DNA of 64,000 bases from Eledone cirrhosa (Eukaryota), in the NCBI GenBank assembly GCA_964016885.1, contig OZ024766.1, positions 16,678,001 through 16,742,000 of the forward strand. The letters are read 5' to 3'. This document shows, one piece after another, positions 1 to 64,000 of this stretch (position 1 is the stretch's first letter; every line of letters begins with the position of its first letter). The notes under the pieces were generated by a model. It saw only the letters and a program-made list of their open reading frames with translations. It was not told where the DNA came from and did not search any database. Made by a program: the position numbers and the translations under genes.

Positions 1-82
1 TTATTTTAATTTTGTATATATATATATAAATACAGAGAAAGAGAAGAGTAGACAACAGACAATGACAAAGAAGAGGAATTAA

Positions 83-165
83 CCACCCCAGTATTTCACT
101 GGTATTTCATTTATTGACCTCAAAATATCGAAGCAACTTTACCTCAGTGGGATTTGAACTCTGAG
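83..165 (-). mobile_element. Degenerate SINE fragment (one per unit)
   Basis: CTGGTATTTCATTTATTGACC..ACCTCAGTGGGATTTGAACTC resembles the SINE body and B box. Confidence 0.5.
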
Positions 166-333
166 AACTAGAACAGACACTGAAAATATATCAAGATGTG
201 CACACATGTATATAAGAACACATATAAACATACACATACATATACACACACATATATACACAAATAAAGATAATCATTTTCATGGACAGAAATTTCTACA
301 CACTGACATATACACTCATACATATATATATAT

Positions 334-456
334 ATAGGAAAATGTTTAACCCCGATGGCAGAGCTCAAGCCATTTCGACGGTTATGTCTGGACTGTTTCC
401 AGAAATAGCCGTCGAAACGGATTGAGCTCTGCCGTCGGGGTTAAACATTTTCCTAT
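334..456. repeat. 123-bp hairpin palindrome P1 (MITE-like) next to (TA)n
   Basis: ATAGGAAAATGTTTAACCCCGAYGGCAGAGCTCAA...TTGAGCTCTGCCGTCGGGGTTAAACATTTTCCTAT with an inner stem and 5-nt loop. Copies at 17520-17642, 28333-28455, 37101-37223, 44236-44358, 51177-51299, 61059-61181. Confidence 0.85.
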
Positions 457-789
457 TACCCGCTCTACTACCCTAAGTATTGAGTACTCTGGTGCGTATA
501 TGGTCCATCTGGTTCTTTACCACACCTCCTTTGTTATATATATATATATATAAAATTATAAGAAACGAAAGGAGCTGTGTGGTTACTGTAAACAAAGTTT
601 AAGATGGTAATATGGATGAAAGGAGAAAATAAACCCTTCATCAGCTGTAAACCGAGATCATAGATGTTTTGGCACATATATATATATACAGTGTTTGTAA
701 ATTCTGTAACATACAGATTTGTCAGCACAAGTCTTGGTTACAACTTCTACAAATAAAATGAAAGGAGAATAATTTCAGAACAAACAAGT

Positions 790-58900: not shown

Positions 58901-59351
58901 TGGAAGAAGAGACTAGAAGGAGCAGTCACTGGAGGGGCCAGTTAAATAAGACAGCCATCGACACATGTATGACAACTGACATTGGAATAAGGGACTAGAG
59001 GGAGCAGTCACAGGAGTGGCCAATTAAATAAGACAGCCATGGACACCTGTATGACAACTGACATTGGAAGAAGGGACTAGAAGGAGCAGTCACTGGAGTA
59101 GCCAGTTAAATAAGACAGCCATGGACTCCTGTATGACAACTGACATTGGAATAAGAGACTAGAAGGAGCAGTCACTGGAGTGGCCAATTAAATAAGACAG
59201 CCATGGACACCTGTATGACAACTGACATTGGAAGAAGGGACTAGAAGGAGCAGTCACTGGGGTAGCCAGTTAAATAAGACAGCCATGGACACCTGTATGA
59301 CAACTGACATTGGAAGAAGGGACTAGAAGGAGCAGTCAGTTAAATAAGACA
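55922..59351 (+). repeat. Satellite B, ~42 units with 5-mer higher-order structure
   Basis: Same 82-bp unit; variant markers recur every 410 bp. Confidence 0.95.
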
Positions 59352-62215
59352 GTTGTTTGCTACTATCCTCACAGCATCTGGAATAAATCTCATCTACCCT
59401 GGTAGGAGCACAAAAACAATATGTCAGACGACTATCTACACCTAGCCCAAAGATGTTATAGCAATATTTATTTGGAATCTACCTCCAGGATTTACAATCA
59501 ATCTCTGTGCAACCTGTCCCATTGAATTCCAGCAATGAATAGCAATGCAGGATGCCAGAGCCAGAAGAAATTGAGGTAATACAATCAGTTTTTCAGGAGA
59601 CAAACCATGATATTGAAGTGTTGCGTAAGTTTGTGGATGAAAATAAACCTTGACTGGTGGATGACCAGAAATATGCCTACCACAACATCATGAAAAACAT
59701 TCAACATGACAGTACCCAGTACTCACTGTAAGTGAGGTTGGCGTTAAGACGGGCATCCATCTTTAGAAATCAAGCCAGAATCAGTTCCCGTCCCACCCTT
59801 GCAAGCAGGGAGAAAGCGGACGTGAAATGAAATGATGATGAATGATGATGTCCCTCCCATATTTTCAATAATGTCACTTTGACGAACCTAAAGATAAATA
59901 ACAGAAAAACAGACCCTAAAATATATTTTCCGTGCTATTTCCAACTTCACCTTTTCTCTATATATAGAGAGAGCGCGAGGAGAATTTGTCATGTCTTCAT
60001 TACATAGGTGCTATTTTAAATAAACATCTTTTAACGGTCTGTTCTGCTATATTTTACTTTTCCACGTATATATATATATATATATATATTTATATATATA
60101 TCAACTAGAAATTGATTGACATATAAATAAACATATGAAACAATCACAGGGGATAATTTGTAAAAGTGTGTAAGCAGACATAGCTAGGTAGGTAACTAAA
60201 TAAAGTTTAACTAGAACTTCAAAGATAGATACCTTAGAAAATGATTAATCTTCCTTGTATATATTCCATTAAAGAAATATATTTCACCAATTAATCGATT
60301 GGTAAACGACAGTAGCCAGATCTTGGATTCTCAACAAGGAAGAAGTCCAACCATCTGTGTTTACGCATCAAGTTCAAATCAGCGACTGACCAGTAACACG
60401 TGCTGTATCTACTAAAAATACACACATCATACCAGCTTCGTCCCAGTTGCGTGAATAGGGTTATTGACAACTGGAAACAGCAGTCAGGTCCTTTCAACAG
60501 AGTTAGCTCTACAATTAAGAGGCCCTATTTATATATATATATATCCAAAATTAAGATAAATTAAAATGAAATTAATCTGAATCGTATCATGGGTGTCATG
60601 CCAATAAGACAGGCGCCATATCGCTCATAAAATAAGCTCCATGGACCTTATTTTACGAGTGATATGGCACATGTCTTTCTGTCATGACACCCATAATTTG
60701 ATATAGATTAATTTTATTTATCTTAATTTTGGATATATATATATATATACAGAGAAAGAGAAGAGTAGACAAACAGACAATGACAAAGAAGAGGAATTAA
60801 CCCCACACCCCCAGTATTTCACTGGTATTTCATTTATTGACCTCAAAATAACGAAGCAACTTTACCTCAGTGGGATTTGTACTCTGAGAACTAGAACAGA
60901 CACTGAAAATACATCAAGATGTGCACACACGTATATAAGAACACATAAACATACACATACATATACACACACATATATACACAAATAAAGATAGTCATTT
61001 TCATGGACAGAAATTTCTACACACTGACATATACACTCATACATATGTATATATATATATAGGAAAATGTTTAACCCCGACGGCAGAGCTCAAGCCATTT
61101 CGACGGTTATTTCTGGACTGTTTCCAGAAATAGCAGTCGAAACAGATTGAGCTCTGCCGTCGGGGTTAAACATTTTCCTATTACCCGCTCTACTACCCTA
61201 AGTATTGAGTACTCTGGTGCGTATATGGTCCATCTGGTTCTTTACCACACCTCCTTTGTTATATATATATATAAAATCATAAGAAACGAAAGGAGTTGTG
61301 TGGTTACTGTAAACAAAGTTTAAGATGGTAATATGGATGAAAGGAGAGAAGAAACCCTTCATCAGCTGTAAACCGAGATCATAGATGTTTTGGCACATAT
61401 ATATATATAGTGTTTGTAAATTCTGTACCATACAGATTTGTCAGCATAAGTCTTGGTTACAACTTCTACAAATAAAATGAAAGGAGAATAATTTCAGAAC
61501 AAACAAGTTTTATTCAAAACATTAAGAACATTGGTGGCACTATTTTGGGTGAGTGATATGGTTTTTATCTTGTCTGATTGTGTTTGTGTTCCATTAAGTA
61601 ACCTTATGTTGGTACCACAACATTTAGAAAATGATTTACCACAGACAACACAGTGATATGGTTCCTCTCCTGTATATGTTAGTGTCTAGTAAAGTCACAA
61701 CATTTAGAGAAGGATTTATCACAGACATCACAGTGATATGGTTCCTCTCCTGTATATGTTAGTGTCTAGTGAAGCCACATTTAGAGAAGGATTTAATGCA
61801 GATATCACAGTGATATGGTTCCTCTCCTGTATATGTTAGTGTGTAGGGAAGCCACAACATTTAGAGAATGATTTACTGCAGATATCACAGTGATATGGTT
61901 CCTTTTCTGTAAATGTTAGTGCTGAGTGAAGTGACTTATTTCAGAGAATGATTTCCCAGATATCACAGTGATATGGTTTCTCTCCTGTATATATATGTTT
62001 GTGTCTAGTTAAGCTAGCTTTTATAGATAACAATTTCCCCCAGATATCACAGTAATATGGCTTTTCTCCAGTATATATTTATGTTTGTATGTAGTTAATG
62101 TAGCAATACAAGAGAATAATTTCTCCGCAATATCACAGTTGTATGACTTCTCACTCATATGAATGTATTTGTGTCTAATTAATTTACAATTTTGAGACAA
62201 TGAGATATGACTTTG

Positions 62216-63997
62216 TTATGGTTTCTTACCTGTATGGGTATATTTGTGTTTAGTTAAACTACTTAATTGAGAGAATGATTTACTACAGATATCACAGTGA
62301 TGTGGCTTCTCACCTGTATGGATACGTAAGTGTTGAGTTAAGTAACTTCTTCGAGAGAATGATTTACCACAGATATGACAGTGATATGGCTTCTCTCCTG
62401 TATGAGTACGTATGTGAGAATTTATATTACTACTAAAAGAGAATGATTTACCACAGATATCACAGTGATATGGTTTCTCTACTGTATGTATACGTTTGTG
62501 TGTAGTTAAGTTACCACTTCTAGAGAATGATTTACCACAGATATCACAGTGATATGGCTTGTCACCTGTATGGGTACGGATGTGATAAGTTAATATACTA
62601 CTTAGAGAGAATGATTGACCACAGATATCACAGCGATATGGTTTCTCTCCTGTATGTATACTTTTGTGACTAGTTAAATTACTATTAACAAAGAATGATT
62701 TACCACAGATATCACAGTGATAAGGCTTGTCTCCTGTATGAGTACGTATGTGAGAAGTTAAATTACTACTAAAAGAGAATGATTTACCACAGATATCACA
62801 GTGATATGGCTTCTCTCCTGTATGTATATGTTTGTGTGTAGTTAAATGACTACTTCGAGAGAATGAATTACCACAGATATCACAGTGATATGGTTTCTCT
62901 CCTGTATGTATACGTTTGTGTCTAGTTAAGCTACCACTTTCAGAGAATGATTTACCACAGATATCACAGTGATATGGCTTCTCACCTGTATGTGTACGTT
63001 TGTGTCTAGTTAATTCACTATTAACAAAGAATGATTTACCACAGATATCACAGCGATATGGTTTCTCACCTATATGTATAAGCATGTGGTTAGTTAATAT
63101 ACTACTTTTAGAGAATGATTTACCACAGATATCACAGTTATATGGTTTGTTTCCTGTATGGGTACTTTTGTGGCTAGTTAAGGTATCACTGTGAGAGAAT
63201 GATTTACCACAGACATCACAGTGATATGGCTTATCACCTGTATGGGTACGGATGTGACAAGTTAATATACTACTTCGAGAGAATGATTTACCACAGATAT
63301 CACAGTGATATGGTTTATCACCTATATGTATACGCACGTGGCTAGTTAAATTACTCCTAAAAGAGAATGATTTACTACAGATATCACAGTGATATGGCTT
63401 CTCACCTGTATGTGTACGTTTGTGTCTAGTTAATTCACTATTAACAAAGAATGATTTACCACAGATATCACAGTGATATGGCTTCTCACCTGTATGTATA
63501 CGCATGTGGCTATTTAAATTACCATTAACAAAGAATGATTTACCACAGATATCACAGTGATATGGCTTCTCTCCTGTATGTGTACGTTTGTGGCTAGTTA
63601 AGGTACTACTTTGAGAGAATGATTCACCACAGATATCACAGTGATATGGCTTCTCACCTGTATGTATACGCATGTGGCTAGTTAATTTACTATTAACAAA
63701 GAATGATTTATCACAGACATCACAGTGATATGGCTTCTCTACTGTATGTGTACGTTTGTGGCTTGTTAAATTACCATTAACAAAGAATGATTTACCACAG
63801 ATATCACAGTGATATGGCTTCTCTACTGTATGTATACGTTTGTGACTAGTTAATTTACTACTTTCAGAGAATGATTTACCACAAACATCACAGTGATATG
63901 GCTTCTCTCCTCTATCCTTTGACATCTCTTCTGTAATAGCCATATCTTTAGACATTGTTTCACATTTAATCTTCTTTTCACTCAATTTATTTTCCAT
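62216..63997 (-). CDS. C2H2 zinc-finger protein ZNF-7 (20 fingers, near-identical to ZNF-4)
   Basis: 593-aa ORF; three amino-acid differences from ZNF-4 seen by eye. Confidence 0.95.
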
Positions 63998-64000
63998 AAT

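What the first reader, a model, noticed from the sequence alone, without database searches (positions are those of the whole stretch)
1..64000. Tandemly amplified cassette: a variable zinc-finger gene packaged with TE relics and several independently varying repeat arrays
Seen: seven head-to-tail units (ATG-to-ATG 17.8, 10.5, 9.4, 6.0, 6.5, 11.5 kb) with near-identical scaffold, but five nested tandem arrays that each change copy number per unit: coding fingers (5-20), 3'UTR relic fingers, satellite A (0-25), SINE-tail repeat (0-5) and satellite B (0-44). Known: octopus genomes have large clustered C2H2 expansions. Inference: the interspersed satellites and the finger minisatellite are substrates for unequal crossover, so the locus keeps generating new DNA-binding arrays.
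Basis: partly seen in the sequence, partly recalled or inferred. Interest (0 to 1): 0.75.

Follow-up and report, generated by a model that had tools for sequence, protein, structure and literature searches.

The report
Zinc-finger array whose satellites are passengers
The seven zinc-finger genes in this window belong to a 95-copy tandem array, likely from an octopus; the copies likely swap DNA mostly in the ordinary sequence between the repeats, so the satellites are likely passengers, and new finger strings likely arise by gain and loss of whole fingers within each gene lineage.

Summary
Observation confirmed: seven minus-strand poly-C2H2 genes at the stated spacings, with five nested arrays. 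They belong to a gap-free 1.08-Mb array of 95 units in two tail-to-tail arms (52+43). Mean scaffold divergence is 3%, with 75 distinct proteins and 58 fingerprint arrays; 2-7-gene blocks recur.

Of 111 inferred donor switches between units, 75 lie wholly in unique scaffold. Per base, relative to scaffold: satellite B 0.12-0.27, satellite A about 0, coding finger array 0-0.02; only the SINE-tail repeat may be enriched (1.4-3x, intervals mostly include 1). A model-free check shows no hotspot at the satellites or fingers, but no clear cold spot either. Flanking DNA is richer in tandem repeats than the window (73-75% vs 46%). Satellite B grew from a Helitron relic.

Finger strings do change, by in-frame gains and losses of whole fingers (24 events on 36 close-paralogue edges). 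Positive selection is suggestive at depth and not significant among close copies. Expression and population polymorphism are untested.

It works like young mouse KRAB-ZNF clusters; no KRAB domain was seen.

The parts
1339..2364 (-). Poly-C2H2 ORF, 341 aa, 11 fingers (array unit R28)
907..1338 (-). Degenerate relic fingers after the stop codon
4075..6957 (.). Satellite A, 115 bp x 25; expanded beside the LTR-element insertion
6958..11049 (+). Ty3/gypsy-like LTR retroelement inserted in satellite A: gag-CCHC, RT and integrase-like ORFs, pol in separate frames, short imperfect terminal repeats; 3 copies in the array at 99.4-100%
11912..12141 (.). SINE-tail repeat, 77 bp x 3
   Evidence: very high depth in other runs and B-box-like loose ends
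12587..14058 (.). Satellite B, 82 bp x 18
15737..17511 (+). 5'-truncated LINE (RT domain; 'RTE-like' is my recalled label); 3 full-length copies in the array at 99.7-100%
18666..20195 (-). Poly-C2H2 ORF, 509 aa, 17 fingers (R29); finger string differs from its sisters R3/R9 by a finger gain and a loss
18077..18665 (-). Relic fingers
21689..22219 (.). Satellite A x 4.3
23003..23341 (.). SINE-tail repeat x 4.4
23794..27414 (.). Satellite B x 44, ending at a deletion junction to a (TA)n tract that 13 units share
28783..28788 (-). AATAAA, predicted poly(A) signal; present in 95 of 95 units (it was the marker used to cut them)
28890..29335 (-). Relic fingers, predicted 3' UTR
29336..30688 (-). Poly-C2H2 ORF, 450 aa, 14 canonical fingers plus one shortened (R30, reference unit)
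31071..31085 (-). Predicted splice acceptor (pyrimidine tract + AG; AG in 95 of 95 units) about 380 nt before the ATG
   Evidence: no RNA data
32415..32754 (.). Satellite A x 3, predicted intronic
32883..32891 (-). Candidate splice donor (consensus match in 85 of 90 units that have this segment)
   Evidence: inference only
33346..33495 (.). CpG-rich patch (o/e 1.53), candidate promoter or first exon
   Evidence: inference only
33496..33653 (.). SINE-tail repeat x 2.1
33706..35762 (+). Helitron RepHel relic: residues 1011-1128, then satellite B (about residues 1146-1172 per monomer), then 1190-1298, collinear
34095..35404 (.). Satellite B x 16
37662..38257 (-). Relic fingers
38258..40039 (-). 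Poly-C2H2 ORF, 593 aa, 20 fingers (R31); its upstream region lacks satellite B through a deletion ending near 43410
41755..41975 (.). Satellite A x 1.9
42717..42946 (.). SINE-tail repeat x 3
44799..45392 (-). Relic fingers
45393..46082 (-). Poly-C2H2 ORF, 229 aa, 7 fingers (R32); an upstream deletion near 47204 removes satellite A, the SINE-tail repeat and the candidate promoter
47208..49505 (.). Satellite B x about 28
51958..52536 (-). Poly-C2H2 ORF, 192 aa, 5 fingers, runs into relic fingers (altered C-terminus) (R33)
54352..54557 (.). Satellite A x 2-3
55923..59338 (.). Satellite B x 41.7
61620..62215 (-). Relic fingers
62216..63997 (-). Poly-C2H2 ORF, 593 aa, 20 fingers (R34), a near-copy of R31

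Best explanation
The window is part of a 95-unit tandem array of poly-C2H2 zinc-finger genes that likely grows by duplication of multi-gene blocks and is likely homogenised by in-register exchange in the roughly 97%-identical unique scaffold, with the satellites likely carried as passengers. Shown: unit anatomy, 95 units, two arms, recurring blocks, mosaic scaffold, whole-finger length steps, Helitron origin of satellite B. Inferred, tier 1: crossover or conversion between paralogous units resolves where the sequence aligns in register, so each finger array mostly travels intact with its own 5' and 3' flanks while upstream segments are reshuffled, also between the inverted arms. Inferred, tier 2: arrays change length by misaligned exchange or slippage between sister, allelic or very close copies. 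This is fastest in satellite B, slower in fingers and satellite A, and rare in the SINE-tail repeat. Because the finger period is 84 bp, gains and losses stay in frame and give new fingerprint strings; deletions into the relic fingers give altered C-termini. The scarcity of crossovers inside finger arrays likely reflects about 15% finger-to-finger heterology and/or selection against chimeras. The proteins are predicted DNA binders with no recognised effector domain; TE targets are plausible from the literature but untested.
For: 95 units by a 5'UTR marker, with no N gap inside the array. All 85 exact genome hits of an N-terminal 21-mer lie in the array. Recurring blocks of 2-7 genes; the longest (3-7 genes) mostly at 0.17-0.72% divergence, some in three copies. 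Copying-model painting of 1,087 scaffold SNPs: 75 of 111 switches wholly in scaffold; relative rates satB 0.12-0.27, satA 0-0.04, ZF 0-0.02, relic 0.6-1.2, private TE insertions 0-0.07. With median array lengths: satB 6-7, ZF 1.4-2.7, scaffold segments S1-S5 11-32 switches per kb. Synthetic chimeras were detected 25 of 25 in each of six classes. One deletion junction is shared by 13 units whose downstream segments are no closer than background. 20 of 111 new donors come from the other arm, and L-R divergence (3.1%) equals within-arm divergence (2.9-3.1%). 24 finger indels, 86 point and 17 multi-nt changes on 36 edges. Near-identical finger pairs are 2.8x denser within genes than between lineages; 19 of 72 arrays carry an internal repeated block. 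Satellite B is locus-private (1,315 of 1,315 exact hits) and Helitron-derived. Flanks are 73-75% tandem repeat vs 46% in the window.
Against: The model-free retention test does not show a cold spot: retention is 0.61 across ZF and 0.60 across satB, against 0.45-0.73 across scaffold gaps. It supports 'no hotspot' only. Painting cannot see conversion tracts that lie wholly inside an array, which biases rates towards scaffold; the control kept the true donors in the panel, so it is an upper bound on detection. At least one chimera joined inside the finger array exists (R27 = R16-type 5' + R42-type 3'). 541 of 1,009 fingers have a match within 1 nt in another lineage, which allows finger-level conversion between paralogues. 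Five of seven large (over 200 bp) upstream deletions near satellite B have one end in it, although it is about 25% of array length. One assembly only; some two-copy blocks could be stacked haplotypes.
Confidence: 0.7

Rival explanations
1. One reading: the interspersed satellites and the finger minisatellite are the substrates that drive unequal crossover between units and so generate new genes.
For: Satellite B changes fastest (18 of 29 close pairs differ; 0-462 copies). Five of seven large deletions near it end in it. 13 of 111 switch intervals span it. The SINE-tail repeat shows 1.4-3.0x enrichment and the lowest retention (0.37). R27 is a finger-array chimera. Human 19p12 offers a precedent of satellite-interspersed ZNF genes (PMC3018141, passage).
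Against: Per-base switch rates are below scaffold for satB, satA and ZF at all four penalties, with bootstrap intervals below 1. No hotspot in the model-free test. Five units with no satellite B upstream sit in duplicated blocks (R6/R12/R31, L13/L37). The flanks are richer in tandem repeats but carry no copies of this gene cassette.
Confidence: 0.12
2. Finger strings diversify mainly by short gene-conversion tracts between different paralogues inside the finger exon (PRDM9-like shared pool), leaving the flanks unswitched.
For: 97 of 402 distinct fingers occur in more than one of 36 families. 263 of 1,009 fingers have an exact match in another of 16 broad lineages. 17 multi-nt finger replacements on 36 edges. 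Painting is blind to such tracts.
Against: At 3% divergence about 12% of 69-mers stay identical by descent alone (my arithmetic), so sharing need not mean conversion. Near-identical pairs are 2.8x denser within genes. Fingers within a gene are not homogenised (p-distance 0.152 vs 0.158 overall). This can act alongside the best explanation.
Confidence: 0.3
3. The array is largely an assembly artefact: haplotypes stacked in tandem or repeats mis-expanded.
For: Some block pairs differ by only 0.17% (L20-26 vs L45-51; R35-38 vs R20-23). Satellite B arrays of 312-462 copies could be mis-sized. A calibrated read-depth test could not be run.
Against: No two units are identical, and the median nearest-neighbour distance is 0.46%. 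58 distinct fingerprint arrays and 29-43 families. Several blocks and both TE insertions occur three times. No N gap. An independent run (X1) shows up to dozens of contigs per scaffold site, and its majority allele matches the array majority at 19 of 25 sites checked.
Confidence: 0.08

Closest known systems
Young mouse Chr4 KRAB-ZFP cluster (PMC12575710; passages read)
   Same: Expansion by segmental duplication of multi-gene blocks (3-7 genes there, 2-7 here); many genes share fingerprint arrays (38-47 distinct there, 58 of 95 here); TEs are multiplied as cargo of the blocks.
   Different: No KRAB domain seen in these ORFs. Units are a regular 5-20-kb cassette (up to 46 kb) at 97% identity. 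ERV-driven NAHR is proposed there, whereas here TE insertions carry about 0 switches. Two inverted arms.
Metazoan poly-ZF lineage expansions (PMC2604467, PMC10547256; passages read)
   Same: C-X2-C-X12-H-X3-H fingers with a TGEKP linker; whole-finger gain and loss between paralogues; variation concentrated at -1, +3, +6; octopus ZNFs are predicted to bind TEs (PMC10547256).
   Different: Those studies found little gene conversion in most sets; this array is mosaic at sub-kb scale. Contact-site excess is significant only at depth here.
Coleoid/octopus C2H2 expansion and chromosomal clusters (PMC12513265 part 1 of 7 and passages; PMC9068888, PMC9795677 passages)
   Same: Clustered, tandem, lineage-specific C2H2 genes, including on small chromosomes.
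   Different: In the passages I saw, none describes unit structure, satellites or exchange maps; for D. pealeii the C2H2 genes are said not to form related subclusters, whereas this is one tight subfamily.
Human 19p12 ZNF cluster interspersed with beta-satellite (Eichler et al. 1998, PMID 9724325; seen only as a reference title in PMC8125562 and one sentence in PMC3018141)
   Same: ZNF genes alternate with satellite blocks.
   Different: Satellite B here is locus-private and born in place from a Helitron; it is not an exchange hotspot by my test.
Gene-containing macrosatellites such as D4Z4, SST1, TAF11-like (PMC3018141; passages read)
   Same: Head-to-tail multi-kb units at high identity; SST1 has two inverted arrays.
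   Different: Here the coding part diverges while the scaffold is homogenised; population copy-number variation is untested.
PRDM9 finger minisatellite (search listing only; features recalled)
   Same: 84-bp coding repeat with whole-finger gain and loss and variable contact residues.
   Different: No SET or KRAB seen; fingers within a gene are about 15% divergent rather than homogenised; 95 paralogues rather than one locus.

Membership tests
Poly-C2H2 (Kruppel-type) ZNF | Tandem C-X2-C-X12-H-X3-H fingers with a 7-aa TGEKPY-type linker | tested here: met
   Pfam zf-C2H2 and zf-H2C2_2; 1,446 fingers with near-invariant C, C, H, H
Poly-C2H2 (Kruppel-type) ZNF | Purifying selection on the zinc-binding core | tested here: met
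   Core dN/dS 0.11-0.17; 20 of 396 coding changes in the core vs 29 of 97 in relic fingers, p=9e-11
Poly-C2H2 (Kruppel-type) ZNF | Positive selection at -1, +2, +3, +6 | tested here: inconclusive
   dN/dS 2.4-3.7 on finger-network edges of 1-2 nt (kappa 1-2); 161 of 396 vs 23 of 97 in relics, p=0.002 (open to homoplasy). Only 1.1-1.4 among close paralogues, p=0.15
Poly-C2H2 (Kruppel-type) ZNF | Expressed and binds DNA | not testable with these tools
   No RNA holder was listed; 76 of 95 ORFs end canonically
KRAB-ZNF | N-terminal KRAB domain | tested here: not met
   The ORF has only about 33 aa before finger 1; no KRAB among the 25 of 40 Pfam families shown for one protein. Upstream coding exons cannot be excluded without RNA
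Young KZFP-type cluster (works like) | Multi-gene block segmental duplications | tested here: met
Young KZFP-type cluster (works like) | ERV/TE-promoted recombination | tested here: not met
   Private insertions: 0-1 estimated switches in 61 kb; SINE-tail repeat 1.4-3x, inconclusive
PRDM9 | PR/SET domain with KRAB/SSXRD | tested here: not met
   None in the ORF or among the Pfam families shown
PRDM9 | Fingers homogenised within the gene (feature recalled) | tested here: not met
   Within-gene p-distance 0.152 vs 0.158 among all distinct fingers
Macrosatellite | Multi-kb head-to-tail units at 90% identity or more | tested here: met
   Mean scaffold divergence 3.05%, maximum 5.3%
Macrosatellite | Copy-number polymorphism between individuals | not testable with these tools
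   Only one assembly; depth could not be calibrated
Ampliconic palindrome | Mirror-image arms at over 99% identity (feature recalled) | tested here: not met
   Arms are inverted and exchange sequence, but gene order is not mirrored and L-R divergence is 3.1%
Helitron relic (source of satellite B) | Collinear homology to a Rep/Helicase protein | tested here: met
   53-56% identity, E about 1e-30, to two proteins carrying PF14214 and PF05970; collinear across flank-satellite-flank; Pfam alone found nothing

The most novel reading that the evidence does not exclude
The 1.08-Mb two-armed array is a 'shuffle the regulators, shield the readers' system. Frequent exchange in the scaffold, perhaps focused at the SINE-tail/CpG candidate promoter, keeps recombining upstream regulatory segments, also across the inverted arms. 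Dozens of finger arrays are held intact against crossover by selection and diversify on their own by whole-finger gain and loss. This would give a segregating, individual-specific repertoire of effector-less DNA binders.
Probability: 0.15. Interest if true: 0.65.

Novelty: new member of a known kind. Interest (0 to 1): 0.38.

Why it matters
How cephalopod C2H2 repertoires expand is described as unresolved (PMC12513265, introduction). This array is young and regular enough that exchange points can be mapped from one assembly. The map gives a direct, mostly negative test of the old idea that interspersed satellites drive ZNF cluster growth. It also offers about 58 fingerprint arrays in a common cassette for binding assays. 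The processes themselves (block duplication, finger gain and loss, TE cargo) are known from mammalian clusters, so this is a clean example rather than a new mechanism.

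Tried and rejected
No RNA holder was listed, so the gene model (donor, acceptor, promoter) is prediction only.

A single-copy depth calibration in other runs was not obtained, so copy number in other individuals stays open. depths are uncalibrated. The low-depth contigs in organisms B and C show only that similar scaffold is present.

The N-terminal homologue search was dominated by generic fingers. One Octopus sinensis hit shares the finger style; 'octopus' is therefore likely, not shown.

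Pfam on the Helitron pieces found nothing; the protein search did.

Pooled NG86 over all fingers gave contact piN/piS 1.11 and was saturated. I replaced it with network and close-paralogue counts.

A shared upstream exon spliced to alternative finger exons was considered unlikely: the outermost right unit has a different ZNF gene ending about 3.5 kb beyond its boundary, and each unit has its own candidate donor.

Recurrent independent loss of the segment beside satellite B was rejected: one junction is shared by 13 units.

A self-blast found no LTR pair in the gypsy-like element; short imperfect terminal repeats are visible by eye.

The original octopus genome paper was not held. My recollection that it links C2H2 genes with satellite annotations is unverified.

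Eight literature searches listed no paper on this array. Subscription journals are mostly missing from that library, and I opened no supplements.

Full report
1. Observation. The window holds seven minus-strand poly-C2H2 ORFs at exactly the stated spacings. It has the 84-bp finger arrays, relic fingers after the stop, a 115-bp satellite A, a 77-bp SINE-tail repeat and an 82-bp satellite B, at about the stated counts. Tiles of one unit map to all others, mostly at 92-100%. Absent arrays are due to deletions that also take scaffold. The first unit carries a gypsy-like LTR element in satellite A and a truncated LINE.

2. Extent. The window is G000:C27:16,678,001-16,742,000. I fetched 15.678-16.942 Mb. 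A 5'UTR marker finds 95 units: 52 with the gene on + (15.761-16.390 Mb) and 43 on - (16.401-16.838 Mb), with no N gap between them. All 85 exact genome hits of an N-terminal 21-mer, and all 1,315 of a satellite B 28-mer, lie in the array. For satellite A, 173 of 197 hits do. Across units: fingers 3-24 (median 15), satellite A 0-48, satellite B 0-462. Mean scaffold divergence is 3.05%, no two units are identical, and there are 75 distinct proteins and 58 fingerprint arrays. 76 of 95 ORFs end canonically. Blocks of 2-7 genes recur, the longest mostly at 0.17-0.72% divergence, and the window is itself a copy of R11-R15 and R2-R4/R6-R7 type blocks. 'Octopus' is inferred from finger style and one named hit and from genome context, not shown.

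3. Anatomy, in gene orientation: 3' flank of the previous gene, (TA)n, Helitron relic with satellite B inside, SINE-tail repeat, CpG-rich patch, candidate donor, satellite A, candidate acceptor (AG in 95 of 95), about 380 nt of 5' UTR, single ORF, relic fingers, AATAAA. The exon model is predicted; no RNA holder was listed. One flank matches Rep/Helicase proteins at 53-56%, and flank, satellite monomer and other flank map in order to residues 1011-1128, about 1146-1172 and 1190-1298. The 77-bp repeat is part of a very abundant element with B-box-like neighbours. Tandem repeats cover 73-75% of both flanks of the array against 46% of the window, so nested satellites are the local background.

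4. Each arm was painted as a mosaic of the other units on 1,087 scaffold SNPs. At penalty 5 there are 111 donor switches; 75 lie wholly in unique scaffold. EM estimates per base, relative to scaffold, over penalties 3-12 (157, 111, 82, 65 switches): satellite B 0.12-0.27, satellite A 0-0.04, coding fingers 0-0.02, relic fingers 0.6-1.2, SINE-tail repeat 1.4-3.0 (interval above 1 at one of four penalties), private insertions 0-0.07. With median array lengths and uniform allocation, satellite B has 6-7 and fingers 1.4-2.7 switches per kb against 11-32 for scaffold segments. Synthetic chimeras were detected 25 of 25 in each class; this control kept the true donors in the panel.

Results against this reading: a model-free test gives retention of near-identity of 0.60 across satB, 0.58 across satA, 0.61 across fingers, 0.37 across the SINE-tail repeat, and 0.45-0.73 across seven scaffold or mixed comparisons. 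This shows no hotspot at satellites or fingers, but no clear cold spot. Tracts wholly inside arrays are invisible to both tests. Five of seven large deletions near satellite B end in it; it is 25% of the length, and a similar number of smaller deletions lie in scaffold. 20 of 111 new donors are in the other arm.

5. How finger strings change. Among 72 distinct arrays (29-43 families by threshold), 36 close edges carry 24 whole-finger indels, 86 point changes and 17 multi-nt replacements. 66 of 76 canonical ORFs are in exact 28-aa phase. Near-identical finger pairs occur in 128 of 7,322 within-gene pairs against 2,703 of 433,229 between-lineage pairs (2.8x), and 19 of 72 arrays have an internal repeated block. 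Yet 541 of 1,009 fingers have a match within 1 nt in another lineage (lineages were grouped by hand). One clear inter-family chimera exists (R27). Entropy peaks at -1, +3, +6 and +2. Contact-site dN/dS is 2.4-3.7 on finger-network edges, with an excess over relic fingers (p=0.002), but only 1.1-1.4 among close paralogues (21 N vs 26 S, p=0.15). The Cys/His core is strongly constrained in both analyses.

6. Turnover of arrays among nearest neighbours with 0-3 flank differences: satellite B differs in 18 of 29 pairs, fingers plus relics in 9 of 40 (two or three of these may be motif-count noise), satellite A in 6 of 34, the SINE-tail repeat in 1 of 28. Counts are weakly correlated (|rho| at most 0.29).

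7. Artefact check. Against an artefact: no gaps, no identical units, three-copy blocks and insertions, and no N-terminal motif hits on other contigs. An independent run shows many variant contigs over the scaffold. Its majority allele equals the array majority at 19 of 25 sites, is present as a minority allele at 2, and is absent at 4. I used 25 of the 40 rows shown, leaving out rows in high-copy TE bins, single-start rows and a few others. Depth could not be calibrated, so false duplication of some 0.17% block pairs and mis-sized giant satellites remain possible.

8. Comparison. The array works like the young mouse Chr4 KZFP cluster: multi-gene blocks, shared fingerprints and TE cargo (PMC12575710, passages). 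It also fits poly-ZF expansions in general (PMC2604467 passages; PMC10547256 passages). It is not a KRAB-ZNF or PRDM9 by the tests run. Octopus C2H2 clusters are known (PMC12513265 part 1 and passages; PMC9068888; PMC9795677). Satellite-interspersed ZNF clusters are known from human 19p12 (one sentence in PMC3018141; reference title in PMC8125562). No supplements were read. This scan has described the same array from other windows; those notes favour finger trading by crossover between copies, which my flank-switch map does not support as the main route, though short conversion is not excluded.

9. Verdict. The cassette array is real and larger than reported, and it is a known kind of system. 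The satellite-driven mechanism is not supported; finger gain and loss is. Novelty: new member of a known kind. Interest 0.38.

Noticed in passing
window 4075-11049; units R2, R8, R28: The three largest satellite A arrays (48, 11, 25 copies) are in the three units that carry the LTR-element insertion; the maximum elsewhere is 10. It may be one lineage effect.
   Followed up: partly
G000:C27:16,390,900-16,400,700: The arms meet tail-to-tail across about 10 kb holding both 3' flanks inverted, a 78-bp satellite (about 40 + 4 copies) and 49-bp repeats.
   Followed up: partly
units L29, L30, L52 (G000:C27 about 16.05-16.12 and 16.345-16.386 Mb): Giant satellite B arrays of 312, 405 and 462 copies, against a median of 19.
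   Followed up: no
G000:C27:16,846,849-16,849,389: A different, single-copy ZNF neighbour with an N-terminal repeat of about 24 aa and 19 fingers; next best match 88%.
   Followed up: partly
G000 contigs C8, C9, C12, C14, C18, C25, C26: The satellite A core has 24 of 197 exact hits outside the array, those listed mostly single copies, so it likely derives from a dispersed element.
   Followed up: partly
window 46325-46558: A sixth small array: a 117-bp tandem duplication in the predicted 5' UTR, present in about 30 units.
   Followed up: no
unit L34 (G000:C27:16,168,479): The ATG is changed to CTG with an otherwise open 21-finger frame.
   Followed up: no
unit R27 (just before the window, ATG at G000:C27:16,670,787): A finger-array chimera of two families with a frameshift after 18 fingers.
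   Followed up: yes
runs X4 and X6 (organisms B, C): Contigs of 465 and 477 bases match the scaffold with 4 and 8 differences at low depth, so similar DNA exists in related organisms; copy number is unknown.
   Followed up: no
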